Shown: piece by piece, positions 8,779-27,900 of the stretch
Layout of the letters: each line of letters begins with the position of its first letter
Numbering within the stretch: the stretch's first letter is position 1
Position numbers and translations under genes: made by a program
Notes under the pieces: generated by a model
Seen by the model: only the letters and a program-made list of their open reading frames with translations
Databases searched by the model: none
Told to the model about the DNA's origin: nothing
Source: Candidatus Avigastranaerophilus sp.
GTDB taxonomy: Bacteria; Muiribacteriota; Ozemobacteria; Ozemobacterales; Ozemobacteraceae
Length of the DNA: 64,000 bases
NCBI GenBank assembly: GCA_045599645.1
Contig: JAZRWI010000089.1
Location: 33,657-97,656 of the forward strand
Direction of reading: 5' to 3'

Positions 8779-10999
8779 TAATAAAGATAAGGTTCTTAGC
8801 CAGATGAGCGAAATCCTTGAAAAGCATAAAGAATCTGAGAACAAGAGAATAAAATCTATTGAAAATTCTTTTGATAAAATTTTTGGCAATTCAGAAAAAC
8901 GTGATTTTGTTCCTTTGCCTAATAACCCTTTGCAGGCAGTAGTTTCTTATGTGGCTAAGTGCTATGGTTTACCTGATTTTAAACTTATCGATGATTCGGA
9001 TAAGTGCATAGCAGATTGTGACAGTAAAATTCAACGTATTATCGAAATTCTGAAAATTTCATGCGGCCGCTCTGGAATATTGGCTTGTTCAGTCTCTCTT
9101 GCAGATGATTGGTATAGCAGTAGTTTTGATCCGTTGATTGTGATAGGAAAAGATGATTCTTCTGTTTTTGCAGTAGTAAATCAAGGTGACAAGAGTATTG
9201 CCATTAATGGAGCAACAGGTGATAGAATTATTGTAGACAAGGAAACATACAAAAATTTCTATAGCTTTGCCTGGTATTTTGCTCGTTCATTACCTAATAA
9301 ATCTTTGACAATCTGGGAATTTCTGAGGTTTGTTTTTTATCCTCAAAGGCATACTATTATTAAATTTTTGGTAGTGTCTTTCCTGGTAAATACATTTTTG
9401 AGTTTTATTACACCATTAATAAATTATATTGTTTTTAGTGAAATAATACCAAATTCTAATAAAAGCTTAATTTTGTATTTGATAATAGCTACTGTGATTT
9501 TTTCTTTGGCGCAAAGCTGGCTGACTTATGTGCAATATGTTATTTTCGGTGTTCTTGCGCATTGGGGCGAAAAAGAAGTAGCTATTTCCATTTGGGACAG
9601 ATTAACCAGATTGCCTGTTTCTTTTTTTAAGAATATTTCTGCTGGTGATTTAGCCAGTAAATTTTCGGCTATTGGTAATATGTTTTTGGCTGTTCAAAGG
9701 GTTGTAATACACATAGGTGGACTGTTTCTGTTTCTGGGAGCTGCTTATTTTGCACCGATACCTTCTTTATGGGCTCTGTTTCTTGTGACCATAGTTGCAA
9801 TCATTCAATTTTATTCTTATAAATATTCTAAAAAATATATGTCCATTGAAACTGCTATTGGCAATAGAACTCAAGGCGTGTTCGTACAGTTTTTGAAGGG
9901 AATTACAAAATTACGGATTGCTGGTGCAGAAGCTGCTGTTACAGACATTTGGTTAAATGGATTTACAGAACAGAAATTAGTATATAAAAAATCATCTATG
10001 ATTAGTAAAATACCATTGGTTCTTCAGAATACATTGCCACAGATAATGTTTGTTGTTATTTCTTCTGCTATATTAATGCAGTTATATAGCTCGAATAAAT
10101 TGCCAATATCTGATTTTGCTGCGTTTATCTCTGCAATAACTATTTTTTCAAATAGCACTATAAGGATAGGACTTGGTTTAATGGCTTGTTTTTCTGATTA
10201 TGCTTCAATAAGTCAATTCCTTCCAATATTAGAGGCTGTGCCCGAAAAATATGATTACTCTTCAACTGTAACGCAGAATCCGGAAGGAAAGATTGAGGTT
10301 AATCATCTTAAATTCTCTTATGACAATAATAGAGAAGTTCTTAGTGACGTTTCGTTTTGTGCAAATCCAGGGGAACTGATAGCTATAACCGGCTCTTCTG
10401 GTTCTGGAAAATCAACCTTATTCAGGCTTATGCTAGGGTTAGAAACTCCAACAAGTGGTTCAATCCTATATGATGATGTTGATATGCTTCATTTAAACCT
10501 TGAATATTTTCGTAGTAAAATAGGGGTTGTGTTGCAGAATGCTGCTCTAATGCCAGATACAATACTAAGAAACATCATTGGTTATTCTTTGGATTTGTCT
10601 GAAGAAGATGCCTGGAAGGTGGCAGAACAGACAGGCTGTGATGAGGATATCCGAAGTTTTCCAAAACAGATGTATACTAAGATAACTACTGGAAGCGTAA
10701 TTTCTGGAGGGCAGAGGCAGAGAATTGCCTTAGCCAGGGCATTGGTTAAAAAACCAAAGATTATTTTCCTTGATGAGGCTACAAGTGCTTTGGATAATAA
10801 GACTCAGGCTATTGTTACAGAATCTCTCAGGCAGTCTGGAGCTACCAGAATCGTAATCGCTCATAGATTGAGCACTATTATTGATGCTGATAAAATCTTT
10901 TATTTAGACAAAGGAAAAATAGTTGAACAAGGCACTTATAAGGAATTGATGAACCTGAACGGGCACTTTGCTGCTATGGCACGTCGTCAGATTGCTTAA
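8771..10999 (+). CDS. Second ABC exporter (TMD+NBD) with about 190-aa N-terminal accessory domain
   Basis: 742 aa. The NBD carries GSSGSGKST, ISGGQRQR and IFLDEAT. The N-terminal extension (LQAVVSYVAKCYGLP ... FDPLIVIGKDDSSVFAVV ... IIVDKETYKNFY) resembles a second non-catalytic C39-like fold. It overlaps the upstream ABC gene by 8 nt. Confidence 0.85.
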   Translation: MIDNKDKVLSQMSEILEKHKESENKRIKSIENSFDKIFGNSEKRDFVPLPNNPLQAVVSYVAKCYGLPDFKLIDDSDKCIADCDSKIQRIIEILKISCGRSGILACSVSLADDWYSSSFDPLIVIGKDDSSVFAVVNQGDKSIAINGATGDRIIVDKETYKNFYSFAWYFARSLPNKSLTIWEFLRFVFYPQRHTIIKFLVVSFLVNTFLSFITPLINYIVFSEIIPNSNKSLILYLIIATVIFSLAQSWLTYVQYVIFGVLAHWGEKEVAISIWDRLTRLPVSFFKNISAGDLASKFSAIGNMFLAVQRVVIHIGGLFLFLGAAYFAPIPSLWALFLVTIVAIIQFYSYKYSKKYMSIETAIGNRTQGVFVQFLKGITKLRIAGAEAAVTDIWLNGFTEQKLVYKKSSMISKIPLVLQNTLPQIMFVVISSAILMQLYSSNKLPISDFAAFISAITIFSNSTIRIGLGLMACFSDYASISQFLPILEAVPEKYDYSSTVTQNPEGKIEVNHLKFSYDNNREVLSDVSFCANPGELIAITGSSGSGKSTLFRLMLGLETPTSGSILYDDVDMLHLNLEYFRSKIGVVLQNAALMPDTILRNIIGYSLDLSEEDAWKVAEQTGCDEDIRSFPKQMYTKITTGSVISGGQRQRIALARALVKKPKIIFLDEATSALDNKTQAIVTESLRQSGATRIVIAHRLSTIIDADKIFYLDKGKIVEQGTYKELMNLNGHFAAMARRQIA

Positions 11000-15137: not shown

Positions 15138-16439
15138 TTAGAGGTCTATAGATTGTTCGTCTAGCAGGAACTGTTCCAGACCAAGGTATAGAATGCCTTT
15201 TTCGTCTCGCCATGGCTTTATATAGTCACGAACAACAACTATTTTATTGAAAGAATCAGGTATTCGCTCTAAGGAAGCTATTTCTTGCTTCCTTTTGTCC
15301 GGGTCTGCTATTGATAAAGCAGATTGAATATAATAACGCTTCAGACCACGGTTAACTACAAAATCAACCTCTAATTGTTTCCTTATTTTTTTGTTATCAT
15401 CGGTTTTCAGGTTTTGTTCAACTACACCAACATCTATGTCAAATCCTCTTCTGAGCAAATCGCAGTATAGAATGTTTTCCATAATATGGGTCTCTTCCTG
15501 CTGCCTGAAGCCAAGACGTGCATTTCTTAATCCTACATCAGTAAAATAGTATTTTAGTGGCGTTTTTAAGTATTTTTTGCCTTTTACGTCGAAACGTTCT
15601 GTTTTATTTATTAAAAAGGCATCAACAAAGTAGCCTAAATATTTTTCTATAGTGGCTGAACTGATTTTGATCTGTTTTTCGCTGGCAAAAGTATTTGAAA
15701 GCTTTGTTGGATTGGTAAGAGAGCCTGTTGATGAGGCTACTATATTTATCAAATCTTCTATGATAGATTTTTCGTTTTGTATTTTGTTTCGTTCCAGAAT
15801 GTCTTTAAAATAAGTTCTTGCAAACAAGTCTCGTAGATATTTGCTTTTTTCTTCATGGGTTTCTAGCGAAAGTACAAAAGGCATGCCACCATATGTGTAA
15901 AAATCTTGCCAGATTATTCTTGGGTCACCGTTTTGGGTTTCAAAAAATTCAGCATAGGACAGCGGATGCACACGAATTTCATCTCCTCTGTCTCTAAACT
16001 GGGTCAGAATATCTGAAGATAGCATCTTTGAATTACTACCAGTGATATATATGTCAGCATTTTTTATTTTCATAAGGCCAAGAATTACATCAACAAAAGT
16101 GATTTTATTTTCTTTGCTGTCTATGTATGGATTCTGGATAGTTGAAACGAATTGTATTTCGTCAATAATGATGTAATAGTGTCTGTTACTGTCTACTATT
16201 CTTTCTCTTATATATTTATCGAGTTTAATTGGATTTCTGTATTCTATATTCGATAATTCTTCTAACGAGATTTTTATTATTTCATTGTCTGATATGCCAA
16301 TAGATTTTAAATATTTTGTGTATAACTCAAACAGCAAATAAGATTTTCCACAGCGTCTTATACCGGAAATGATTTTTACTCTTCCGTTGTCTTTTTTCTT
16401 TATTAAGGCTTGTATATACTGGTTCCTGTTGATTTTCAT
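15138..16439 (-). CDS. AAA-type ATPase of the DUF4143 (COG1373) family
   Basis: 433 aa with P-loop GIRRCGKSYLL and Walker B YYIIIDEIQ. The C-terminal region is typical of DUF4143 proteins. Confidence 0.85.
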   Translation of the reverse strand: MKINRNQYIQALIKKKDNGRVKIISGIRRCGKSYLLFELYTKYLKSIGISDNEIIKISLEELSNIEYRNPIKLDKYIRERIVDSNRHYYIIIDEIQFVSTIQNPYIDSKENKITFVDVILGLMKIKNADIYITGSNSKMLSSDILTQFRDRGDEIRVHPLSYAEFFETQNGDPRIIWQDFYTYGGMPFVLSLETHEEKSKYLRDLFARTYFKDILERNKIQNEKSIIEDLINIVASSTGSLTNPTKLSNTFASEKQIKISSATIEKYLGYFVDAFLINKTERFDVKGKKYLKTPLKYYFTDVGLRNARLGFRQQEETHIMENILYCDLLRRGFDIDVGVVEQNLKTDDNKKIRKQLEVDFVVNRGLKRYYIQSALSIADPDKRKQEIASLERIPDSFNKIVVVRDYIKPWRDEKGILYLGLEQFLLDEQSIDL

Positions 16440-16450
16440 AATTTTGCCCG

Positions 16451-16558
16451 AAAAATTATTGCGGATTCCGCATTTTTTTTACGAGTAAATTATATCAGTG
16501 TTATTCGTAAAAATCAAACTACTCAAAAAATTATTGCGGATTCCGCATTTTTTTTACG
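16451..16558. repeat. Two copies of a 33-bp palindrome-containing direct repeat
   Basis: AAAAATTATTGCGGATTCCGCATTTTTTTTACG occurs at 16451-16483 and again at 16525-16558. Each copy contains the inverted repeat GCGGA-T-TCCGC flanked by A and T runs. The pair lies between two co-directional minus-strand genes. Confidence 0.85.
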
Positions 16559-16572
16559 GGTTGGTCTTGGGT

Positions 16573-17547
16573 TTATTTTCGAGAAAAAACAACGGCTTGT
16601 TTTATAGAGGCTAAAATAATACTGACTACTCTTGGCTGTAAATAAATATCGGGAAGTTTGGACTTACTATATTGATATTTTGTTGAGTTGGTAAGTTTTG
16701 TGAGTAAATCAGTAAAGTAGCGTTCCCAACTGAAATAGTTATTACTATTAATGTAATCAGACGGATTCATGAGTATATTATCCAGGTCTTTATCTTCAAA
16801 AAGTTTCGAAGCTAAGATTAACCATTCAAAAGACTCTGGTAAATATAATTTAATGTTTTTATTTCCAATAAGTTTAACAATACGATCTATTTCAGAACCA
16901 AATGCTGCACCATCAGCAATAATCAGGGTGCCTTTATCATTCTGACTATCAAGCAAATGGAATATGTTTGCTTTACCCTTAGCAGATTCACAGTCTATTG
17001 CATTTTGTTGGCAAACAGCAGAAAAAAAATCATTTCCGGAATTTGAATCTTCAGTTATTATTTTTTCTGGGATTATAGGAACAGACAAAAATCTTTCATT
17101 GGAATAAATCTTATAAAATTCGTGATAGGTCTGGTTTAAATAATTATATTTTCCAGAATTTTTAATGCCGTATATTTCATTAACACTGTATGGCAACGAA
17201 TGTAAGCTTTCTCTGGTTACAATAACATAGTAATTGTCTGTATTTTTTATACAATTAGCAAAATCGTGGGAAGAAACAAAATAATTACCTTCATCAATAA
17301 ACACAATGCTATCAGAGATTAAGCCCAGTTGTTTCTGCCAGTTATTACCATTTATTACTGCACAGGTTTTGTCACATATTAATTCGATACCACTTTCTAT
17401 ACCGTTTTCAGAGTATTCGCGAATCATATCAACTAAAGAGGTTTTGCCTGTTGCACTGTTGCCCTGAATTATTGTAATGTTTCGCCTTAGTTCAAAATCA
17501 TAGCGTAAGCGTTTACTACGAATCGATATTTTATGAATGCCTTTCAT
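16573..17547 (-). CDS. Compact P-loop NTPase with C-terminal TOPRIM/DUF4435-like region (OLD/PARIS-like, tentative)
   Basis: 324 aa. Walker A is QGNSATGKTS and Walker B is IVFIDEG only about 45 aa later. The C-terminal half has acidic motifs (IITEDSNSGND and LIIADGAAFGSEID) reminiscent of TOPRIM. The fold assignment is inference. Confidence 0.6.
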   Translation of the reverse strand: MKGIHKISIRSKRLRYDFELRRNITIIQGNSATGKTSLVDMIREYSENGIESGIELICDKTCAVINGNNWQKQLGLISDSIVFIDEGNYFVSSHDFANCIKNTDNYYVIVTRESLHSLPYSVNEIYGIKNSGKYNYLNQTYHEFYKIYSNERFLSVPIIPEKIITEDSNSGNDFFSAVCQQNAIDCESAKGKANIFHLLDSQNDKGTLIIADGAAFGSEIDRIVKLIGNKNIKLYLPESFEWLILASKLFEDKDLDNILMNPSDYINSNNYFSWERYFTDLLTKLTNSTKYQYSKSKLPDIYLQPRVVSIILASIKQAVVFSRK

Positions 17548-17555
17548 AAAATCAC

Positions 17556-18032
17556 CTATACGTATCTGCCAGCTATTGGAATTAATTCTTCCATGCTTGT
17601 AACAATCTGATTTGTATTAAGTAATTTAACCTTGAATTTTTCAGGACCAAAATCCATCAGGTGGCGTAGGTTTATTACAATATCTTTTTCTTTGGCTATC
17701 TTTAATAGCCATTTGGCACAGTTATCGCCACAGGTTGAAGCATTAAATACTTTGTCCGGTTCGTTAAAAATAAGAATCAAAGTTTTAACACCACCAGACA
17801 ACGCCAAGGGCGAAATCTTGCCTAATACTGGACTATCGATAACAGCGTTCCCTAACACAGTAGATTTATCAACATCAAGTATCATTTTTTTGGCAAAATC
17901 GTTTGTTATCCAAGAATCTTCATAAGTATTCTTGAAATATACAGACGTATTAAAAACAGCCTCAGGCATATCGCCATAAAAGATGCTTAACATCAAATTA
18001 CCGCCTTTTTCAGATATCAATAGTATAGCCAT
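17556..18032 (-). CDS. DUF4869-like small protein
   Basis: 158-aa ORF. The probable true start is ATG 17993 (MLSIFYGDMPEA..) with an AAGG RBS. It contains LSGGVKTLILIFNEPD, which resembles an ABC signature. It ends 8 nt before the downstream ATPase gene. Confidence 0.7.
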   Translation of the reverse strand: MAILLISEKGGNLMLSIFYGDMPEAVFNTSVYFKNTYEDSWITNDFAKKMILDVDKSTVLGNAVIDSPVLGKISPLALSGGVKTLILIFNEPDKVFNASTCGDNCAKWLLKIAKEKDIVINLRHLMDFGPEKFKVKLLNTNQIVTSMEELIPIAGRYV

Positions 18033-18125
18033 TTATACAATAATTATCAACAGCGAAATGAAGGCATATAGTTTCGTTTTTAACAAAAGCACCATAAAAA
18101 CAGTTTTATGAATTTATCTTACTTG

Positions 18126-18846
18126 CTTGGTATCGAAGTGTAGCTAGTAAAGCTTTAAGCTTTAAGCTATAGGCTCCAAGCCCCAAGCCCCAAGCCCCAA
18201 GCCCCAAGCCCCAAGCTATAAGCTATAGGCCCCAAGCCCCAAGCTATAAGCTATAGGCCCCAAGCCCCAAGCTATAAGCTATAGGCTCCAAGCTTCTAGC
18301 TTCAGGCTTCCGACGGCCTGCTTTCTCGGCCAAGAGCTAAAAGCTAAGAGCCAAAAGCCTATTGAACCAAACCTTATACCCGCTTGGTATCGAAGCACTG
18401 TCCTGCTTCTAGCTTCAAGCTTCAAGCTTTAAGCTATAGGCTCCAAGCTCCAAGCCCCAAGCTCCAAGCTCCAAGCTCCAAGCCCCAAGCCCCAAGCTAT
18501 AAGCTATAGGCCCCAAGCTCCAAGCCCCAAGCTATAAGCTATAGGCTCCAAGCCCCAAGCCCCAAGCTATAAGCTATAAGCTATAGGCTCCAAGCTTCTA
18601 GCTTCTAGCTTCAGGCTTCCGACGGCCTGCTTTCTCGGCCAAGAGCTAAAAGCCAAAAGCCTATTGAACCAAACCTTATACCCGCTTGGTATCGAAGCAC
18701 TGTCCTGCTTCTAGCTTCAAGCTTCAAGCTTTAAGCTATAGGCTCCAAGCCCCAAGCCCCAAGCCCCAAGCTCCAAGCTCCAAGCTCCAAGCTATAGGCT
18801 CCAAGCTTCTAGCTTCTAGCTTCTAGCTTCTAGCTTCAAGCTTATC
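18126..18846. repeat. Composite element: three heptamer arrays separated by two copies of an about 100-bp core
   Basis: The left end at 18126-18155 equals 11491-11520. The arrays lie at about 18149-18310, 18406-18612 and 18705-18846 and use the units CTTTAAG, CTATAAG, CTATAGG, CTCCAAG, CCCCAAG, CTTCTAG and CTTCAAG. The cores lie at 18306-18409 and 18614-18708 and differ by a 7-nt indel. Confidence 0.95.
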
Positions 18847-18987: not shown

Positions 18988-21900
18988 ATGATTGAGCTAA
19001 TACTGATGGATATTTGCAGGCACAAAATGCAGAAAGACAAAAAATATAGAATTAGAGCGGACATTAAGAAAAGAGCAATGGCTCTGGCTGTTGCTTTGTC
19101 TGTTTTTCTCCAATCCACAACTGTTTCTTTTGCTGCAGCTCCGACTTTTGGTGCCGGTTCAGGCACCAATAGCACTGCAGCGGGTGTTAACAATACTGCT
19201 GACGGTGCAAATAGCACTGCTGTAGGTTTGGGTAACACGGCAAATGGTTCGCATAATGTTGCTGTTGGCTCAACTAATAATGCCGATGGAACCTATACCG
19301 CTGCACTAGGAACTTATAACAATATTAATGGCTATGAAAGTAACGCAATCGGTGACGACAATAATGTTACTGGTTCCCATACAAATGCAATAGGTTCCCG
19401 AAACACCACTGATGCTAATAATAGCAATGCTATAGGGTCATACAATAAAGCAATGGCTGAAAATAGCAGTGCTTTTGGTTACAAGAATACCGCTAATGGT
19501 GAAAACAGTGTGGCTTTCGGTTTTGCTAATCTGGCTGAGATTGGTAGTTCTACGGCAATAGGTGTCTCAAATACTGCTAATGGCGATGAAAGTAGTGCAC
19601 TAGGTTTTTCCAATATTGCTACGGGTAGTTTAAGTTCTGCTATTGGTGCTGAAAATATTGCTGACGGTAATTACAGTAGCGCCTTTGGTGGTCATAACAA
19701 AGCTAATGGTATTCTAAGTAACGCCTTCGGTTATTTTAACGAAGTAAATGGCTATACTAATGTTGCTATGGGTTCCAACAATACTGCTTCAGGTTCCTAT
19801 GCCAGTGCCATGGGAACATTTAATAAAATCTATTATGGTCATGAAAGCAATGCAATAGGTGATGATAATACTGCCAGTGGTACTCGTACTAATGCTATCG
19901 GTAGTTATAACCAAACTTATGCCAATTATAGTAATGCAATAGGTACTCAGAACAACACAAATGGAGAATATGCCAGTGCCTTTGGTGCAGAAAATACTGC
20001 TGGTGGAGAATACAGCAGTGCTTTGGGTTACCACAATACTGCATCGGGCTATTTTAGTTCTGCTGTGGGTAGCGAAAACAAAGCCTATGCCGATTATGGC
20101 TCAGCAATAGGTGTTTATAATTATGTAAACCAAGAATCTGCTAGTGCTTTGGGTTACAAAAATACTTCTTCAGGTCTTGAAAGCAGTGCTATGGGTGCAG
20201 AAAATACTGCTTCAGGAGAAACTAGCAGTGCCATTGGGAATAAGAATAGTGCTGAGGGTGTGAATGCAAGTTCTGTTGGTGTAGAAAATACTGCTGCTGC
20301 TTTCAGTAGTGCTGTTGGTTATTTTAACAAGGCTGTAGGTGGAAATAGCTTTGCTTTCGGTGGTTATAACGAAGCCAATGGAAATTTTAGCAGTGCTTTT
20401 GGTATTGGCAATGATGCTTTTGGCCGCGATAGCACTGCCATGGGCAGTGAGAATGCTGCAACAGGTAATAAGAGTTTGGCTATTGGGTATGCCAACAATA
20501 GAGAGTTTATCCCTATACTTTCCATCTTATCGCCTGTTGATGCCATTGATACAGGTGAAAATAGCACCGCAGTAGGCTATGTTAACGTTGCTATCGGCAC
20601 AAATAGCAGTGCTTTGGGTTATATGAATAGAACCGAAGGTGAAAATAGCACCGCAGTAGGCTATAAGAATTCCTCAGCCGGTCTAAGAAGTAGTTCTATT
20701 GGTTATAATAACGTTGCTAGTGGCACAAACAGTACCGCGGTCGGTTATTCCAACAATGCACATGATTCTATGAGTGCTGCAATGGGTACGGGCAACGAAG
20801 CGATAGGCGAATTTACCAGTGCCATTGGATCTAGCAATTACGTTAAAGGCTATGAAAGTAATGCTATTGGTGATGACAATAATGCTTTGGGTATGAATTC
20901 GAATGCTGTCGGTAGTCATAACGAAGTTTATGACAATAATAGTAATGCAATAGGTACTGGGAACTATATCGAAGGTGAAAACAGCAGTGCTTTTGGTACT
21001 GAAAACGAAGTAATCCTCTCTAATAGCAGTGCTTTCGGTTTGAGTAACAGTGTTTCAGGGGAAAAGAGCAATGCATTGGGTTATAAAAATGAGGTTCTTA
21101 CTAATGATAGCAATGCTATAGGTAGCTTAAATAAATCTAAAGGCGGCCTTAGTAGTGCTATTGGTTATTCTAATGAAGCTTCTGGCTATATGGGCACCGC
21201 TGTCGGTTATGGTAACTCAGCTTTTGCTAATGGAAGCAGCGCTTTGGGTAATGCAAACCAGGCAAACAGCTATGAAAGCAGTGCCATTGGCGCTAAAAAT
21301 ATAGCAAAAGGACCTCAAAGCAGCGCCTTTGGTGCTTCAAATACTGCATTACTCTCCTACAGCACAGCTTTGGGTTATAATAATATTGCTAATGCCGAAT
21401 ACAGTAATGCTTTTGGTAACGTAAATAGAGCTAATAGTGATTATAGCAGCGCGGTAGGTGTTGGCAATATAGCTAATGGGTATTTCAGCAGTGCCTTTGG
21501 GGCCAACAATATTGCAGAAGGGGACTACAGCAATATTTTTGGGATTGATAATGAAGCTTGGGCAGAAAATAGCACCGCAGTAGGCTATGTTAATGTTACT
21601 AGCGGTGCAAATAGCAGTGCTTTTGGTGCAGAGAATGCCGCAGGTGGTGATTACAGCACTGCAGTTGGTTATAAAAATGAGGTTACGAATAAGCACAGTA
21701 TTGCTTTGGGTAGCTTGAATAGTGTTGCAGCTATGCAAAGTAGTGCTATCGGTTATAAAAACGTTGTTTCGGCTTATGAAGGTACTGCTGTTGGTAATTA
21801 TAATGAAGCAAGGGACGTTTCAGCTGGTGCTTTTGGTTATTCTAACAAGGCTATAGGTGAAGAAAGCTATGCTTTCGGTGGTTATAACGAAGCTCATGGA

Positions 21901-24900
21901 GGTCTTAGCAGTGCTTTTGGCTATACAAATATAGTTAAAGGAGAATCCGGCAGTGCTTTTGGCTATACCAATACAGCTAATGGTGACTATAGCAGTGCTT
22001 TTGGTTTTTCTAATACTGCTGAAGGAGAATCCGGCAGTGCTTTTGGTAATTCTAATATAGCTAATGCCCTTGAAAGCAGTGCCTTCGGTTTTAACAATGT
22101 TTCTGAAGGAGAATCCGGCAGTGCTTTTGGTAATTCAAATAACGCTTCGGCATTGGGCAGCAGTGCGTTGGGTAATGCAAATAAGGCTTCTGGTGAGAAT
22201 AGCAGCGCAGTAGGTACAAACAACGTTTCTATGGGAGTGGAAAGTACTGCTATAGGTAATTTTAACGAATCTAAGGCGGAAAGCTCCAGTGCCGTTGGTT
22301 ATGGCAATATTGCTACTGGTTTGAGCACTGTGGCTGTTGGTGCTTACAACGAAGCTATCGGGACTGACAGCATTGCTCTTGGTAAAGACAATATCAGCTA
22401 TTTGGAAAATAGTGTCGCTATTGGTTTGTCAAATCAAGCATTTGAGGAAGATTCCAGTGCCGTTGGTGGCTATAATAATGCTTTGGGCGATATCAGTAAC
22501 GCCTTTGGTAATACTAATAATGCCTTAGGCGATTTCAGCCAGGCTTTCGGTGGGTGGAACATAGCTTCAGGCAGCAGCAGCACTGCTTTTGGTATGAGTA
22601 ACTATTCTGGTGGCGATTACAGCGTGGCTATGGGCTTCGGCAACAACTCAGCTTACGATGAAGACGATTTTGTTGGTGGCGTTATAGCTACCTATGCTTC
22701 AGGTCATTTAAGCACCGCAGTAGGTATTAACAACGTAGCAACTGGAGCTCGAAGCATAGCTGTTGGTTTCCAGAACTTCTCAGATGCTGAATCAAGCAGT
22801 GCAGTCGGTTATAAAAATACCGTAGCAGGCGATGCTAGTAATGGTTTCGGCAGTTTGAATGAAGTTAGCGGCGACTACAGTAGCGCTGTTGGTTATCAGA
22901 ATGCTCTTAATGGCGCAAACAGCAATGCTTTCGGTCTTACAAATGATTTGACAGGTGAATATAGCAACGCTTTTGGTGCAAACAATACAGTTAATAACGA
23001 CTACGCTACTGCTATTGGTACATGGAATGACGCTTCAGGTGAATATAGCAGCGCTGTTGGGTATTCTAATACTGTATCAGATTCTTATAACAGCGCTTTT
23101 GGCTCTAACAATATAGTTTCAGAAAACTATTCCAGCGCTTTTGGTTATCAAAATACTATTTCTGGCGGTTCTAGCAACGCTTTGGGTTATAAAAATACAG
23201 TAAGTGGTATTTATAGCAATGCCGTAGGTGCTTATGATTATGTTGGCGGGAATTATAGCACAGCTATTGGTTATGGCAACAATAGCGAGCTTAATTCATA
23301 CTGTTTCCCTACTTCTCTTATTGATTCTGGTGACTATAGCAGTGCAATAGGCTTTAATAATATTTCATCCGGTGAATACAGCAGTGCTTTTGGTAGTGAA
23401 AACAAAGCTACAGATGGTCAAGCCAGTGCTTTTGGGCATGCCAATGAAGCTACTGGTTATGAATCCAGTGCTTTTGGCGCTTATAATGAGGCTCCAGCCG
23501 ATTTCGGAAATGCGTATGGTTATTCAAATATAGCTTCGGGTGAAGACAGTAATGCTTTTGGTGATTGTAACGAGGCTTCTGGCGATTTTAGCAGTGCTTT
23601 TGGTTATGATAATAAAGCTATTGAAGAAGGCAGTAATGCTTTCGGTTATGGGAACCAGGCTAATGGAGCTTATAGCATTGCTCTGGGTGCAGAAAACCAA
23701 GCAAATGCCGATTACAGCGTAGCCATAGGTTATCAGGCGGTTTCAACAGAAGAAAATACCGTTTCCTTTGGTCATAGCATAGGTGACGCTAAGCCTTATG
23801 GAACCTACAGCGATGAACTTAACAGCAGGCTTGTTCATGTTGCTTCAGGCACAGCGAATACCGATGCGGTAAACTACGGTCAGGTAAAGAGCGGCTTTGC
23901 TTCAGCTACCTATAATGCTTCAACAAAGAAACTGACTCTTAAATCAATTGACGGCACAAGCAGTGAACTGATAATTTCCAATGACGGTGGAGATCTTGAT
24001 CTTTCACTTATTAAAAACAGCCTTGGTCTTCTTGATGATAAGCCAAACACCATTAACAGCAGCGGATCTATTGCAATCGGTTCCGAAAATACTTCCGGGG
24101 TTGCCGGTAAGCGTTCAATAGCTATAGGTATTGCCAACTCTTCAACAGGCAGCTATTCTGTTGCTCTTGGTTCCCAAAATGATGTCAGCGGTTTGAATGG
24201 CACTGTAGTGGGACACGAAAACACTTCTAATGGCGCATACAGCAATGCTTTTGGCTACAACAATACTGCATCAGGCAATGAAAGCAATTCCATAGGCTCC
24301 AATAATCTTGCTTCAGGAAACCAGAGCAGCGCTTTTGGTTATGAAAATGTTGCTGTTGCCACTTTAAGCAATGCCTTTGGTTATGACAACTATGTAACAG
24401 GCGAAAGCAGCAGCGCTTTTGGCGTCAGCAATACCGCAACAGGCACAAACAGCAGCGCTTTTGGCTACAATAGCCATGCTGACGGGTATAGAAGCTCTGC
24501 TTTGGGGTATAACAACCTTGCTGGTTCAGCAAACACTATAGCTATTGGTAGTTCCAATATTGCCTTTTCAGAAAGCAGCATTGCCATTGGTGTATCAAAT
24601 ATTGCTTCCGGCGCTTCCAGCATAGCTATTGGCGCCGATAATAAATCTAATGGCGAATCCAGTGTGGCTTTTGGTAGTGGTAATATTACTAATGCAATCT
24701 ACAGCGTGGCTTTTGGTGGCTGGAATGTAGCCTCTGGCACATTAAGTTCTGTCTTTGGCGTTGACAACATTACAGAAGGCCAGCATAGTGTAGCCCTTGG
24801 TGTTGGTAATAATGCCAAAGATTACAATTTTGACGATCCGTCTGCTGGTATTGTAACTACCTATTCGTCTGGTGAAAGAAGTACCGCTGTTGGGGTTAAC

Positions 24901-27900
24901 AACGTAGCTACCGGCACAAGAAGCACTGCTGTCGGTTACCAGAACTTCTCTGATGGCGATTCAAGCACTGCTTTCGGTTACCAGAACTATGCACTGGGTA
25001 AAAACAGTAGCGCGTCTGGTAATGGTAATATTGCTTCTGGAAGCTACAGTAATGCCTTTGGTTCTAAAAGCAAGACCTCCGGTAGTTATAGCAGTGCCTT
25101 TGGTTATTCTAATGCCGCAACAGGCACAAATGCCAATGCTTTTGGTAGCAATAACAATGTATCAGGAAATCAGAGCAGCGCTTTTGGTGTCTTTAATGCT
25201 GTTACTGCTGGTTCAAGCGGTGCCTTTGGTTTTGATAACAGGGCTTATAGCGACAGAAGTAATGCTTTCGGTTATCAGAATACCGCTTCTGGTTCTCAAA
25301 GCAGCGCTATGGGCTTTAAGAACATAGCTGTTGGTGATAACAGCAGTGTCTTTGGTTTTGAAAACTATGCTACAGGTCCGAACAGCCTGGCTTTCGGTTA
25401 TCAGAACCTTACTGATGCTGAAAAGACTTCTGCTTTCGGTTTCCAGAATAGTGCCCTTGGTTCCGGCAGTGTGGCCTTTGGTCATGCAAATAAATCTATT
25501 GGTGAAGACAGTAATGCTGTCGGGTCTGACAATATTGCAACAGGCACTAAGTCTAGTGCTTTTGGTTATTCTAACAAATCAGAAGGTAATGACAGCTCAG
25601 CCATAGGCTACGACAACTATGCAAAAGCTGAACATAGCAGTGCTTTTGGTAGCGATAACGTTGCAACTGGCACTAAGTCAAATGCATTTGGTTATAGTAA
25701 CTATGCTGATGGTGACTATAGCGCTGCTTTTGGTACCGGCAACTATGCCATAGGTAGTAAAACTACTGCTATTGGTCATTCCAACATCACTCTCAGTGAC
25801 TACAGCACTGCTGTTGGTTATAAAAATACTGCTAATGGCACAGACTCAGTTGCAGTTGGCTATAAAAATACTACTAATGGCACAGATTCAGTTGCTGTTG
25901 GTTACCAGAATACTGCTTCTGAAAGATATGATTCTGCAGTTGGTTATAAGAATACAAGCAGCGGTGCTTACAGCTCTACATTTGGTAATGCAAATACAGC
26001 CTCTGCCAGAGGCAGTAATGCAATAGGCTATCGTAATATCGCTGAAGGTCAATACAGTAGCGCATTCGGTGCAGAAAGCCATGCCATAGCCAATGGTAGT
26101 CTTGCTCTTGGTTATCAGTCTGTTGCGAAGGATGTTAATACTGTTTCCTTCGGTCATGCAGCCGATGATCTTGATGTTGACGGCACAGCCTATGGCACTG
26201 ATAAATACAGCAAGCTTGTTTATGTTGCTTCAGGTTCTGCAAATACCGATGCTGTAAACTACGGCCAGATAAAGAGCGACTTTGCATCAGCAACCTATAA
26301 TGCAGCAAATAATAAGCTCGTTCTGAAATCTGTAGACGGCACTACCAGTGAACTGACCATAACAAGTGATGCTGTAGATAATGATTTGTCTTTAATCAAA
26401 AATTCCCTCGGCCTGCTTGATGCTTACCCGAATACCATTAACAGCAGCGGCTCTATAGCTATCGGTTCTAGAAATGTTTCCGGAACATCAGCAGATACTG
26501 CAATCGCTATTGGTATTGGTAATAAGGCTAATGCTGATAAAGCTATCGCTCTTGGTTATGAAAACGAAGTCAGTGGTTCCTCTGGTACTTCATACGGACA
26601 CAACAATGTTGTTAGCGGCAATAATGGTCTAGCCGTTGGTGATAAGAATCAGGCTAAGAGTGACTATAGTAGTGCTGTTGGTTATGAAAACATAGCTTCA
26701 GGTGCAAACTCCACCGCTTTGGGCAGAACCAGCAAGGCTCTTAGTCAATATGCTACAGCTGTCGGTTATAACAATACCGCCTCTGGTAATAGCAGTAATG
26801 CTGTTGGCAAAGGGAATTCGGCTTCGGCTGACAATTCTAATGCTTTTGGTAACAGTAATACTTCTTCTGGCAACAACAGTAGTTCATTTGGTAATGACAA
26901 CTCAGCCTTAGGTTGGGATAGTATCGCTATGGGTAATAAGAACCAGGCTAGAAGTGATTATAGCGTCGCTATTGGTTATGAAAACATAGCTTCAGGTGCA
27001 AGCTCCACCGCTTTGGGCAGAAGCAGCAAGGCTCTTAATCAATCTGCTACAGCTGTCGGTTACAATAACACTGCTTCTGGCAATAGCAGCGCAGCTGTTG
27101 GTTTTGGCAATCAGGCTCTTGGTTCAAACAGCGGAGCCTTTGGTAGAGGCAATACCGCTTCAGGTTCTTTGGCTAACGCTTTTGGTTACAATAACTTAGC
27201 TTCTGGCTCAGATACTACTGCTTTTGGTAATGGTAATCAGGCTACTGGTGGTGCCAGCAACGCTTTTGGTTATCATAACACCGCTTCTGGCAATAGCAGC
27301 ACAGCAATGGGTTCTGGTAACACTGCTTCAGGCAGTGTCAGCACTGCTGTTGGTTATGGTAATATAGCTTCTAATAGCTATAGCAGTGCCTTCGGTTATC
27401 AAAACAAGGCCTACGGCCAGGGAAGCAGTGCTCTTGGTTATGGCAACCAGGCTCTAGGTACGGATGGTGCCGCTGTTGGTTTTAATAATATAGCTTCTGG
27501 AAGTAATAGTAGTGCTTTTGGCGTTAGCAATATTGCTTCCGGTTCTGGAAATGCTGCTTTCGGTAACAACAACAAAGCTTTGGGCGGTGGCAGTGATGCT
27601 TTGGGCTTGGGCAACACTGCTTCAGGTAACAACAGTAGTGCAATAGGCACTGGTAATACAGCTGCCGGCACATATAGTGTTGCCATGGGCTATAGTAATA
27701 CTGTAACAGGTCAGGGCAGCAGTGCTGTTGGTTGGACAAATACTGTATCCGGTCAGGATAGCAATGCCTTCGGTTTCAGGAATGAAGCTCTGGGCGTAAA
27801 CAGCAATGCTTATGGTAAGATGAATAAGGCTCTTGGTTCAACAAGCAGTGCATATGGTTATGAAAATACTGCAACAGGTTCAAACGGTAGCGCTTTTGGT

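What the first reader, a model, noticed from the sequence alone, without database searches (positions are those of the whole stretch)
16573..18032. DUF4869-like protein + compact P-loop/TOPRIM-like protein: candidate two-gene defence module with a possible split ABC-type active site
**The two genes**
- They are 8 nt apart on the minus strand.
- The 324-aa protein has Walker A (GNSATGKTS) and Walker B (IVFIDEG) only about 45 aa apart. There is no signature motif between them.
- Its C-terminal half has acidic motifs (ITEDSNSGND and IIADGAAFGSEID) reminiscent of the TOPRIM/DUF4435 nuclease modules of OLD, Gabija GajA and PARIS AriB.
- The small upstream protein carries LSGGVKTLILIFNEPD. This looks like an ABC signature motif (LSGG) followed by a degenerate Walker-B-like strand.

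**Hypothesis**
- In ABC dimers the signature motif completes the ATP site in trans. The small protein may supply that element to the ATPase.

**Context**
- The neighbours are a PIN toxin-antitoxin pair, a methyltransferase and a DUF4143 ATPase, with repeat elements next door. This fits a defence or accessory islet.
Basis: partly seen in the sequence, partly recalled or inferred. Interest (0 to 1): 0.7.

Follow-up and report, generated by a model that had tools for sequence, protein, structure and literature searches.

The report
Split ABC ATPase–nuclease defence candidate
This is a self-contained, mobile two-gene operon, very common in gut and rumen anaerobes and never characterised, that pairs an ATPase fused to a probable nuclease with a small "dead" ATPase-like partner that has kept only the parts that complete another subunit's ATP site; it is most likely an undescribed anti-phage or toxin-like conflict system.

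Summary
**Observation: confirmed.** Two minus-strand genes 8 nt apart form an operon with its own promoter and terminator.
- Gene 1 is a full-length DUF4869 protein (Pfam E 1e-62). Its true start is M14, giving 145 aa rather than 158.
- Gene 2 (324 aa) has a reduced ABC/SMC-type head: Walker A, Walker B, an invariant Arg at the H-loop position, and no signature motif. It is fused to a Rossmann-like domain with invariant acidic residues.

**The pair is an obligate unit.**
- DUF4869 lies directly upstream in 76 of 80 species-level genomes, with no conserved third gene.
- The two proteins co-evolve (r = 0.88).
- A 1.8-kb unit is 99% identical in three unrelated contexts.

**The split-site idea gains indirect support.**
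- The DUF4869 model matches almost only ABC/SMC heads, though each match is weak.
- All 108 DUF4869 sequences keep xSGG and none has a Walker A.
- 205 of 209 partner ATPases have a Walker A and only 4 have a chance signature-like string.

**The TOPRIM claim is not confirmed.** Pfam, PADLOC, PDB profile searches and hhalign found nothing for the C-terminal domain. It has one Asp where TOPRIM has DxD.

**Context and novelty.** Neighbours often include restriction-modification, BREX, Wadjet and PARIS-like genes and integrases. No paper mentions DUF4869, and NCBI mislabels the ATPase "translation initiation factor 2". I rate it a new variant of the ABC-ATPase-plus-nuclease defence theme. Function and complex formation remain inferred.

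The parts
18022..18050 (-). Sigma-70-like promoter of the operon (-35 TTGATA, 17-nt spacer, -10 TATACT)
   Evidence: 10 of 12 matches, the best in the region. An equivalent TTGCTA-N17-TATACT lies at the same place in the 99%-identical mobile unit of L098, L099 and L100. It overlaps the ATG at 18032, which argues for M14 as the true start.
17556..17993 (-). DUF4869 gene (145 aa from M14; the mechanical ORF extends to 18032). Predicted catalytically dead ABC-like head that keeps the signature (LSGG) and a D-loop-like segment.
   Evidence: Pfam PF16163, E 1e-62. Homologues are 145 aa. AlphaFold model: pLDDT 92.6, pTM 0.87. Foldseek top 50 against the PDB: 47 ABC/SMC/PtuA/MukB heads. A ribosome-binding site AGGCGG lies 8 nt before M14.
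17790..17801 (-). Codons for LSGG (residues 65-68 of the 145-aa protein), an ABC-signature-like motif at the N-terminus of helix 67-77
   Evidence: S66, G67 and G68 are invariant in 75 diverse partners. xSGG is present in 108 of 108 sequences.
17548..17555 (-). 8-nt intergenic spacer. The ribosome-binding site AGGTGA (17552-17557) overlaps the DUF4869 stop codon, so translational coupling is likely.
   Evidence: Sequence. In 80 genomes the gap ranges from a 4-nt overlap to 15 nt.
17128..17547 (-). N-terminal domain of the 324-aa protein (about residues 1-140): reduced ABC/SMC-type ATPase head. It has Walker A GNSATGKT (17437-17463), Walker B IVFIDE (17290-17307) and invariant R112 at the H-loop position. 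It has no signature motif and no inserted helical or dimerisation domain.
   Evidence: Sub-threshold AAA_23, AAA_29, ABC_tran and SMC_N hits in 16-71 of 94 members. LmuB, PtuA and AriA N-terminal hits. hhalign against P2 Old gives P = 9e-4 and aligns IVFIDE with LIFIDEPE and VIVTRE with VIISTHS. Foldseek finds the MutS2/MutS ATPase domain (probability up to 0.99), Rad50 and GajA.
16576..17085 (-). C-terminal domain (about residues 155-324): four-strand Rossmann-like fold plus a helical bundle. Invariant or near-invariant E166, D167, D212, E238, E241, E275 and K295. Predicted metal-dependent nuclease or phosphoesterase effector (TOPRIM-like or CheY-like fold).
   Evidence: Model secondary structure: E162-165, H170-181, E185-188, H193-200, E207-210, H217-227, E232-235, H240-246. 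Conservation. No hit in Pfam, PADLOC or PDB sequence profiles.
16535..16547 (.). GC hairpin TGCGGATTCCGCA flanked by A and T runs: bidirectional terminator-like element 26 nt after the ATPase stop codon
   Evidence: One of two exact copies in the window.

Best explanation
The locus is a self-contained, horizontally mobile two-gene conflict module, most likely anti-phage or anti-plasmid defence that works by abortive infection or in a toxin-like way. It belongs to the broad 'ABC-ATPase sensor plus nuclease effector' class, which includes OLD, Gabija, PARIS, Septu and Rlo/AbiL.

**Shown**
- The two genes form one operon with its own promoter, a coupled ribosome-binding site and a terminator.
- They are co-inherited and co-evolving in hundreds of species.
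- There is no third partner.

**Inferred**
- The 324-aa protein is a minimal ABC-type ATPase head. It carries only the cis-acting ATP-site elements: Walker A, Walker B and an Arg at the H-loop position. It is fused to a Mg2+-binding Rossmann-like domain that acts as the nuclease effector.
- DUF4869 is a degenerate ABC-type head. It has lost Walker A and the Walker B acids (N84-A85), but it keeps invariant the elements that act in trans in ABC dimers: LSGG at a helix N-terminus and the following D-loop-like STCGDNC segment.
- The two proteins form a pseudo-symmetric head-to-head heterodimer with one competent composite ATP site (ATPase cis elements plus the DUF4869 signature) and one entirely dead site.
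- ATP binding or hydrolysis at that single site gates the effector domain in response to an invader cue.
For: **Operon anatomy**
-.

**Obligate pairing**
- DUF4869 lies immediately upstream, from a 4-nt overlap to a 15-nt gap, in 76 of 80 species-level genomes. Two of the four exceptions sit at contig edges.
- The same arrangement holds in all metagenomic contexts examined.
- No recurrent third gene among 721 neighbours.
- Mirror-tree correlation r = 0.88 over 75 unique pairs.

**Mobility**
- A 1797-bp unit is 99.2% identical in three unrelated contexts.
- It occurs in Lachnospiraceae, Oscillospiraceae, Treponema, Parabacteroides, Coriobacteriaceae, Victivallales and Negativicutes.
- Some genomes carry several copies.

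**ABC nature of the ATPase head**
-.

**ABC-like fold of DUF4869**
- 47 of the top 50 PDB fold matches are SMC, ABC-transporter, PtuA or MukB heads. The best are SMC3 at E 0.0097 and T. maritima SMC at TM 0.45.
- The order and spacing of LSGG, strand, helix and strand-plus-His fit the ABC pattern. The Walker-B position to H-loop position spacing is 26 residues in both proteins.

**Complementary motif loss**
- 205 of 209 ATPases have Walker A, and 194 of 209 have hhhhDE. Only 4 of 209 have a chance signature-like string.
- 0 of 108 DUF4869 sequences have Walker A or GK[ST], while 108 of 108 have xSGG.
- The signature and D-loop act in trans in ABC ATPases (PMC7049728).

**Defence context**
- Window: the PDC-S01 candidate and a PIN pair.
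- The 94%-identical homologue sits beside a type I restriction-modification system with embedded YoeB/RelB.
- Among 283 immediate neighbours in 80 genomes: PglZ x2, JetD, Cas3, AbiLi/AriA x2, SoFic x3, type I S and M subunits x4 each, PDC and HEC candidates, integrases and excisionase-type HTH proteins.
- RloA/RloB, PtuA-like plus HNH, and AAA_21 plus DUF4276-like pairs lie nearby.
Against: **Complex and ABC homology**
- No prediction or measurement of a complex was possible.
- Every Foldseek E-value for DUF4869 is weak (0.0097 or higher; TM 0.45 or lower).
- No sequence-profile method links DUF4869 to ABC proteins or to its partner's head.
- OLD-family ATPases hydrolyse ATP with a degenerate or absent signature, so the ATPase may not need a donor.

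**Effector domain**
- The C-terminal domain has no detectable homology to any nuclease family.
- Its nearest solved folds are CheY-like or PTS-IIA-like, so nuclease chemistry is a guess.

**Defence role**
- Many neighbours are housekeeping genes: glycoside hydrolases, AraC regulators and transporters.
- Defence enrichment was not tested against a proper background.
- The module is rare on phages (5 of 50,697 records and 5 of 2.9 M viral contigs) and on plasmids (3 records).
- No phenotype exists.
Confidence: 0.45

Rival explanations
1. Toxin-antitoxin-like addiction module. The 324-aa ATPase-effector is a toxin. DUF4869 is its proteinaceous antitoxin or inhibitor, capping the ATPase head as a decoy ABC partner and keeping it off rather than completing an active site. 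The module persists through addiction or abortive infection.
For: - The small gene comes first and the larger second, with translational coupling.
- Some genomes carry multiple copies, and degraded extra DUF4869 copies occur (L011, L031, L109).
- The bare 1.8-kb unit is highly mobile.
- It lies next to other toxin-antitoxin genes: PIN, YoeB/RelB and Fic.
- DUF4869 is more conserved than its partner (median identity 64% against 54%).
Against: - An inhibitor has no obvious need to keep an invariant LSGG and D-loop-like segment while losing exactly the cis-acting motifs.
- A 145-aa folded ABC-like domain is atypical for type II antitoxins, and it has no DNA-binding domain.
- This reading overlaps with the main explanation, since abortive-infection defence is often built like a toxin-antitoxin pair.
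Confidence: 0.25
2. The LSGG resemblance is coincidental. DUF4869 is an unrelated small alpha/beta adaptor or sensor that binds the ATPase elsewhere, or binds a phage cue. The ATPase works as a homodimer with a degenerate signature, like OLD.
For: - No sequence-profile link between DUF4869 and any ABC protein.
- Fold matches are individually non-significant.
- OLD ATPases function with degenerate signatures.
Against: - The fold-match list is almost purely ABC/SMC heads.
- Motif order, spacing and helix-capping position match the ABC pattern.
- Conservation is absolute in just the trans-acting segments.
Confidence: 0.2
3. The module is not a conflict system. It is a housekeeping or mobile-element maintenance function (DNA repair or recombination, or segregation) carried by integrative elements of gut anaerobes.
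For: - The ATPase head resembles MutS, Rad50 and SMC heads.
- Some copies lie in ICE-like contexts with ArdC, a primase and an integrase.
- Many neighbours are metabolic genes.
Against: - Distribution across phyla is patchy and the contexts are hypervariable.
- No conserved association with replication, conjugation or repair genes.
- It is frequently adjacent to restriction-modification, BREX, Wadjet and PARIS-like genes.
Confidence: 0.1

Closest known systems
OLD-family nucleases (P2 Old and T. scotoductus OLD, Class 1; Gabija GajA, Class 2)
   Same: - N-terminal ABC-type ATPase followed by a C-terminal Rossmann-like acidic domain in one polypeptide.
- The signature motif in the ATPase itself is degenerate or absent (PMC7049728).
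- hhalign against P2 Old aligns Walker B and the H-loop strand (P = 9e-4).
- The best viral fold match is an OLD-type 'ATP-dependent endonuclease'.
- GajA and Retron-Eco8 appear among the weak PDB matches.
- Found in defence islands.
   Different: - Half the size: 324 aa against about 530-680.
- No dimerisation or helical insertion between Walker A and B; only about 45 residues separate them.
- Arg instead of His or Asn at the H-loop position.
- No Pfam or PADLOC OLD or TOPRIM hit.
- A single Asp where OLD has DxD.
- An obligatory second protein (DUF4869) that OLD enzymes lack.
PARIS (AriA ABC ATPase + AriB DUF4435/TOPRIM) and related two-gene modules (RloA/RloB, AbiLi/AbiLii, AAA_21+DUF4276)
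   Same: - Two-gene operon pairing an ABC ATPase with a nuclease.
- Mobile, and located in defence islands. Such modules even lie next to this one.
- The N-terminus gives weak AriA, PtuA and LmuB hits.
   Different: - Here the split is different. The effector domain is fused to the ATPase, and the separate small protein is a second, dead ABC-like head rather than the nuclease.
- hhalign of the C-terminal domain against an RloB alignment finds nothing.
- DUF4435 is hit by only 1 of 54 members, at E 0.029.
Asymmetric ABC heterodimers with one degenerate ATP site (TAP1/TAP2, CFTR, BmrCD, EcfA/EcfA')
   Same: The proposed principle is the same: one consensus site is built from the cis motifs of one subunit and the signature of the other, while the reciprocal site is degenerate. 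BmrCD and EcfA-A' appear among the DUF4869 fold matches.
   Different: - In known cases both subunits keep a nucleotide-binding P-loop. Here the degeneracy would be total: no Walker A at all in DUF4869 and no signature at all in the ATPase.
- Both heads are strongly miniaturised (145 aa and about 140 aa).
- The resemblance rests on established knowledge plus motif analysis, not on a structure of this pair.
Septu PtuA / Lamassu LmuB SMC-like ATPases
   Same: PtuA structures are among the DUF4869 fold matches. PtuA and LmuB HMMs hit the ATPase N-terminus in 57-77 of 94 members.
   Different: Only the first 40-140 residues match, and no coiled-coil or insertion is present. The partner nucleases (HNH, Cap4 and others) are unrelated.

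Membership tests
DUF4869 (Pfam PF16163) | Full-length match to the family HMM above the gathering score | tested here: met
   210 bits against a cutoff of 28.9, covering profile positions 1-128 of 128. All 120 listed homologues carry PF16163.
ABC-type ATPase superfamily (324-aa N-terminal domain) | Walker A and Walker B with a catalytic Glu | tested here: met
   GxSATGKT and hhhhDE. S31, G34, K35 and E86 are invariant in 94 members. 205 of 209 and 194 of 209 sequences carry the two motifs.
ABC-type ATPase superfamily (324-aa N-terminal domain) | ABC signature motif (LSGGQ) preceding Walker B | tested here: not met
   No LSGG-like string; the region reads NGNNWQKQL. Only 4 of 209 family members have any [LFYIV]SxG-type string. 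OLD-family ABC ATPases also lack it.
ABC-type ATPase superfamily (324-aa N-terminal domain) | H-loop histidine after the strand following the D-loop | tested here: not met
   Invariant R112 occupies the position aligned to the His of P2 Old STHS.
ABC-type ATPase superfamily (324-aa N-terminal domain) | Significant profile or fold match to ABC/SMC heads | tested here: inconclusive
   Pfam AAA_23, AAA_29, ABC_tran and SMC_N hits are all below the gathering score. Foldseek finds MutS2 at E 5e-3 with probability 0.99. hhalign against P2 Old gives P = 9e-4 but probability 23%.
ABC-type ATPase fold (DUF4869) | Fold similarity to ABC nucleotide-binding domains, with the signature motif at a helix N-terminus before the Walker-B strand | tested here: inconclusive
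   47 of the top 50 PDB matches are ABC, SMC, PtuA or MukB heads, but E is 0.0097 or higher and TM 0.45 or lower. The secondary-structure order fits. There is no sequence-profile support.
OLD-family nuclease | ABC ATPase domain with an inserted dimerisation domain between the N- and C-terminal halves of the head | tested here: not met
   Only about 45 residues (one beta-hairpin and a short helix) lie between Walker A and B. The definition comes from PMC10568477.
OLD-family nuclease | C-terminal Toprim domain with metal-binding Glu and DxD (P2 Old E398, D453, D455) recognisable by family models | tested here: not met
   No Pfam or PADLOC hit in 54 C-terminal domains. hhalign of the C-terminal domain against P2 Old gives E 0.15. 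The motif is ADGAAFG, with a single Asp. Residue list from PMC7049728.
TOPRIM fold (generic) | Four-strand Rossmann-like fold with a conserved acidic residue after beta1 and acidic residues after beta3 | tested here: inconclusive
   Strand ends carry E166/D167, D212 and E238/E241 in the model. The nearest solved folds for this part look CheY-like or PTS-IIA-like.
PARIS (AriA/AriB) | AriA-type ABC ATPase plus a separate DUF4435 Toprim protein | tested here: not met
   AriA HMMs hit only the first 50 or so residues (E 6e-3). The partner is DUF4869, not DUF4435. PADLOC gives no hit for DUF4869.
Anti-phage defence system (operational) | Enrichment next to known defence genes | tested here: inconclusive
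   Known defence genes lie within two genes on either side in a sizeable minority of 80 genomes, in the window and at the closest homologue. No background control or defence score was computed.
Anti-phage defence system (operational) | Protection phenotype on phage or plasmid challenge | not testable with these tools
   Requires experiment.

The most novel reading that the evidence does not exclude
A previously unrecognised and very widespread immune module of gut and rumen anaerobes may build its single ATP site from two different miniaturised ABC heads. One head has kept only the cis-acting motifs and is fused to a new Mg-dependent effector fold. The other has kept only the trans-acting motifs (signature and D-loop). 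This would be an extreme, obligate 'split-site' ABC heterodimer with no described counterpart, acting as the switch of a new defence system.
Probability: 0.3. Interest if true: 0.75.

Novelty: new variant of a known kind. Interest (0 to 1): 0.6.

Why it matters
**Abundance without characterisation**
- The pair is extremely abundant. More than 7,000 clusters at 90% identity were scored for each protein.
- The ATPase family has 2,481 clusters at 50% identity.
- At least 551 species-level genomes across six or more phyla of gut and rumen bacteria carry it.
- It is nonetheless absent from PADLOC v2 and from the searchable literature, and it is mis-annotated in RefSeq as "translation initiation factor 2".

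**If it is a defence system**
- It would add a common immune module for Lachnospiraceae, Oscillospiraceae and Treponema, groups whose phage defences are poorly charted.

**If the complementary-motif heterodimer is real**
- It would be the cleanest natural example of dividing cis and trans ABC catalytic elements between two polypeptides.
- It would give a function to DUF4869.
- It would define a new effector domain.
- The system is compact (1.4 kb) and easy to test.

Tried and rejected
1. **Fusion proteins.** P0003 (446 aa) looked like a DUF4869-ATPase fusion. It is an internal duplication artefact. None of the top 150 family representatives has an N-terminal extension. P0312 and P0317 are C-terminal chimeras.
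2. **PDB sequence searches.** Single sequences and profiles of both proteins and of the C-terminal domain gave only noise: gluconate kinase, beta-2-microglobulin, a designed P-loop protein, eIF5B and a receiver domain at E 0.013.
3. **Family scans of the isolated C-terminal domain.** Pfam and PADLOC scans of 54 diverse members gave nothing consistent: one DUF4435 hit at E 0.029, two DprA and two SIR2 hits.
4. **hhalign of the C-terminal domain.** Tested against P2 Old, a Treponema RloB, a 29-sequence RloB alignment and a DUF4276-like neighbour. No similarity was found. The by-eye resemblance of PESFEWLIL to RloB PCFEAWFLLH is therefore unsupported.
5. **hhalign of DUF4869.** Tested against three ABC ATPases and against its partner's N-domain. 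Nothing was found.
6. **A shared four-cysteine metal site.** I considered a site formed by DUF4869 C88/C92 and ATPase C58/C62. I rejected it because the ATPase cysteines are present in only 41 of 94 diverse members, and 5 of 74 pairs lack C58 while DUF4869 keeps both cysteines.
7. **A conserved third gene or ncRNA.** None was found.
8. **A phage-borne origin like P2 old.** The module is rare on phage and viral contigs.
9. **The Krishnan et al. 2020 ABC-ATPase classification paper.** It is not held in the library, so it could not be checked.
Full report
**1. What is in the sequence**

The window carries two minus-strand ORFs, 17556..18032 (158 aa) and 16573..17547 (324 aa), separated by 8 nt.
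- The stop codon of the first gene overlaps an AGGTGA ribosome-binding site for the second.
- A sigma-70-like promoter (TTGATA, 17-nt spacer, TATACT; 18050-18022) lies just upstream. It overlaps the ATG at 18032.
- Homologues are 145 aa and an AGGCGG site lies 8 nt before M14. The real start of the small gene is therefore M14 at 17993.
- A GC hairpin with flanking A and T runs (16535-16547) follows the ATPase gene.
- The unit is thus promoter, DUF4869, ATPase, terminator.

**2. Identity of the two proteins**

The small protein is a full-length DUF4869 (PF16163, E 1e-62).

The large one has no family above threshold.
- Only its first 40-140 residues give sub-threshold hits, to SMC/RecF/ABC-type N-termini (AAA_23, AAA_29) and to PADLOC LmuB, GajA, AriA and PtuA.
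- This pattern is reproduced in 57-77 of 94 diverse family members.
- NCBIfam and PHROGs give nothing.
- RefSeq calls the family "translation initiation factor 2". This is evidently an artefact of the GxxATGKT P-loop; compare the weak eIF5B hit.

**3. Conservation**

Across 94 representatives down to 34% identity:
- The invariant residues are R22, S31, G34, K35 (Walker A), E86 (Walker B), R112, D167, E238, E241 and E275.
- E166, D212-G-A-A-x-G, P237, S239, F240, W274, Y293 and K295 are at least 90% conserved.

In 75 DUF4869 partners, the following are invariant or nearly so:
- S66, G67, G68 and K70, within LSGGVKTL.
- F83, N84, (A85, S86), C88, G89, (N91) and C92.
- N108, L109 and (H111).

**4. 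Structure predictions**

Both proteins model well: 324 aa at pLDDT 85 and pTM 0.83; DUF4869 at pLDDT 92.6 and pTM 0.87.

The ATPase N-domain has the ABC-head order.
- It runs: beta-hairpin, strand, P-loop, helix, hairpin, short helix, Walker-B strand, helix, strand (ending T-R112-E), hairpin.
- It has no helical subdomain or insertion.
- Foldseek finds MutS2/MutS ATPase domains (E 5e-3, probability up to 0.99), Rad50, GajA and Retron-Eco8 in the PDB.
- In BFVD it finds an OLD-type "ATP-dependent endonuclease" as the best match (E 3.7e-5), followed by ABC and MutS7/8 proteins.
- hhalign against P2 Old (P = 9e-4, probability 23%) aligns IVFIDE with LIFIDEPE and YYVIVTRE with YQVIISTHS. That places R112 at the H-loop histidine position.

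For DUF4869, 47 of the 50 best PDB matches are ABC-type heads: SMC3, T. maritima SMC, CydDC, PtuA, MukB, EcfA and many transporters. The other three are Csn2.
- Each match is weak on its own (E 0.0097 or higher, TM 0.45 or lower).
- LSGG caps helix 67-77. It is followed by a short strand (F83-N84), a helix (90-102) and a strand ending R110-H111. This is the ABC order: signature, Walker B, D-loop, H-loop.
- The distance from the Walker-B acidic position to the H-loop position is 26 residues in both proteins.

**5. Complementary degeneration**

- Of 209 ATPases, 205 have G....GK[ST] and 194 have hhhhDE. Only 4 have any signature-like string.
- Of 108 DUF4869 proteins, none has a Walker A or even GK[ST]. 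Two have a chance hhhD[DE], and all 108 have xSGG.
- In ABC ATPases, Walker A, Walker B, the Q-loop and the H-loop act in cis, while the signature and D-loop act in trans (PMC7049728).
- The ATPase has therefore kept the cis set. DUF4869 has kept, invariantly, the trans set while losing the cis set.
- Caveats:
  - OLD-family ATPases work with degenerate or absent signatures.
  - No sequence-profile method links DUF4869 to ABC proteins or to its partner.
  - I could not run a complex prediction.

**6. The C-terminal domain**

The model shows four beta-alpha units. E166/D167 follow beta1, G191-K192 follow beta2, D212 follows beta3 and E238/E241 follow beta4. A helical bundle carrying SWER and YxK comes next.
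- This is compatible with a TOPRIM-type or receiver-type Mg2+ site, and a metal-dependent nuclease is the natural guess. None of my tests confirms TOPRIM.
- There is no Pfam or PADLOC hit in 54 isolated domains and no PDB profile hit.
- hhalign against P2 Old, RloB (single sequence and 29-sequence alignment) and a DUF4276-like neighbour is negative.
- The DxD motif is a single Asp.
- The PDB fold matches that appear to cover only this part are Spo0F, PTS-IIA and similar flavodoxin-like folds.
- I therefore treat it as a new family with a TOPRIM-like or CheY-like acidic Rossmann-type fold and unproven chemistry.

**7. Distribution and genomic behaviour**

- More than 7,000 clusters at 90% identity were scored for each protein.
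- The ATPase family has 2,481 clusters at 50% identity, all about 320-330 aa and none fused to DUF4869.
They include Lachnospiraceae, Oscillospiraceae, Faecalibacterium, Treponema, Parabacteroides, Coriobacteriaceae, Victivallales and Mitsuokella.
- In the 80 loci fetched, DUF4869 lies immediately upstream in 76. Two loci are at contig edges. One Mitsuokella locus has a 438-aa ORF inserted between the genes, and another has the reverse order.
- No third gene recurs among 721 neighbours.
- Pairwise identities of the two proteins correlate at r = 0.88.
- A 1797-bp unit (promoter, both genes and 277 bp downstream) is 99.2% identical in three unrelated contexts in Negativicutes metagenomes.
- Some loci and genomes carry two pairs or extra DUF4869 copies.
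- The module is rare on phages (5 records; 5 of 2.9 M viral contigs) and on plasmids (3).

**8. Context**

- In the window, the downstream neighbour is the PADLOC candidate PDC-S01 (AAA_14+DUF4143, E 4e-105). It is followed by a SAM methyltransferase and a PIN_3 pair.
- The 94%-identical homologue sits beside a type I restriction-modification system with embedded YoeB/RelB.
- Among 283 genes within two positions on either side in 80 genomes:
  - Defence and mobility genes: PglZ x2, JetD, Cas3, AbiLi/AriA x2, SoFic x3, MADS genes, PDC and HEC candidates, type I S and M subunits (4 each), three integrases and four excisionase-type HTH proteins.
  - Two-gene ATPase modules nearby: RloA/RloB, PtuA-like plus HNH, and a recurrent AAA_21 plus DUF4276-like pair.
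  - Housekeeping genes: many sugar-utilisation and transport genes.
- This fits a variable defence or accessory-islet cargo gene, but I did not compute a controlled enrichment.

**9. Interpretation**

Best explanation (confidence about 0.45 for the whole chain): a mobile two-protein conflict module of the ABC-ATPase-plus-nuclease class. DUF4869 would be a dead ABC head that supplies the signature and D-loop in trans to the single ATP site of a minimal ATPase-effector fusion.

Confidence by step:
| Step | Confidence |
|---|---|
| Obligate operon | about 0.97 |
| ABC-type ATPase head | about 0.9 |
| DUF4869 is ABC-derived | about 0.7 |
| Composite site | about 0.5 |
| Effector is a nuclease | about 0.5 |
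| Effector is true TOPRIM | about 0.3 |
| Conflict or defence role | about 0.65 |

Rivals:
- A toxin-antitoxin arrangement with DUF4869 as a decoy inhibitor.
- A coincidental LSGG.
- A non-conflict role in mobile-element maintenance.

**10. Novelty**

- No paper in the searchable library mentions DUF4869 or PF16163, and PADLOC v2 has no model for either protein.
- The theme of an ABC ATPase with a metal-dependent effector in defence islands is well known (OLD, Gabija, PARIS, Septu, Rlo/AbiL).
- The architecture here is not: a miniaturised head without an insertion, a fused new effector fold, and a separate dead ABC-like partner.
- I class it as a new variant of a known kind, with interest 0.6.

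Noticed in passing
window 18157-18843: Three blocks of heptanucleotide tandem repeats (units CCAAGCC, AGCTCCA and GCTTCAA; 14-31 copies each) are separated by conserved spacers of about 100 nt. They fill the gap between the DUF4869 promoter and the start of the giant adhesin gene at 18988. This could be a phase-variation or promoter-spacing element. The weak Rfam 'MIR7125' hits here are repeat artefacts.
   Followed up: partly
window 18988-33375 (+): A single 4795-aa ORF is made of YadA/Hia-like 'SAxG-xxNxAxG' repeats with repeated neck or stalk modules and a C-terminal anchor-like region. It looks like a giant trimeric-autotransporter-type adhesin typical of diderm Firmicutes. The closest homologues of the module also sit in Negativicutes contexts with LpxC/LpxD, Omp85 and flagellin genes.
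   Followed up: no
window 16451-16486 and 16526-16561: Two copies of a 36-nt element contain the hairpin TGCGGATTCCGCA; these are the only two in the window. One acts as a terminator after the ATPase gene. The other lies between a good sigma-70-like promoter (16517-16489) and the start of the PDC-S01 gene at 16439, so it sits in that gene's 5' leader.
   Followed up: partly
window 15138-16439 (-): The AAA_14+DUF4143 ATPase matches the PADLOC candidate defence family PDC-S01 at E 4e-105 over its full length. It is an independent candidate defence gene directly downstream of the module.
   Followed up: no
RefSeq WP_300656923.1, MCI8790607.1, RHR15810.1 (P0119, P0486): Public annotation names the 324-aa family 'translation initiation factor 2'. 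This is a propagated mis-annotation with no support from any profile.
   Followed up: yes
L098, L099, L100: 9917-11713: A 1797-bp unit (promoter, both genes, 277 bp downstream) is 99.2% identical in three unrelated genomic contexts. In L098 a 38-bp sequence from the unit's right end also occurs upstream (9596-9633). This hints at a short repeat involved in its movement.
   Followed up: partly
L031 (Blautia sp.), L011, L109, L084, L089: Structural variants of the locus occur. There are two complete pairs plus DUF4869 pseudogene fragments in L031. L011 and L109 carry a second DUF4869 copy. In L084 a 438-aa ORF is inserted between the two genes. In L089 (Mitsuokella) the order is reversed, with the ATPase first.
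   Followed up: partly
L031:6764-8849, L048 (two copies), L060: A recurrent two-gene module lies next to the DUF4869 pair in several genomes. It consists of a 473-aa AAA_21/AAA_15 ABC ATPase and a 237-aa protein with a weak DUF4276 hit and motifs VEGPSDE and VDMDGAF. It matches PADLOC AbiLi/AriA-type hits. L046 carries a PtuA-like ATPase plus an HNH protein, and L076 carries RloA/RloB.
   Followed up: partly
P0312, P0317 (509 and 489 aa): Two cluster representatives share the first 200-225 residues of the ATPase and then continue into unrelated sequence. They are gene disruptions or assembly chimeras rather than new domain architectures.
   Followed up: no
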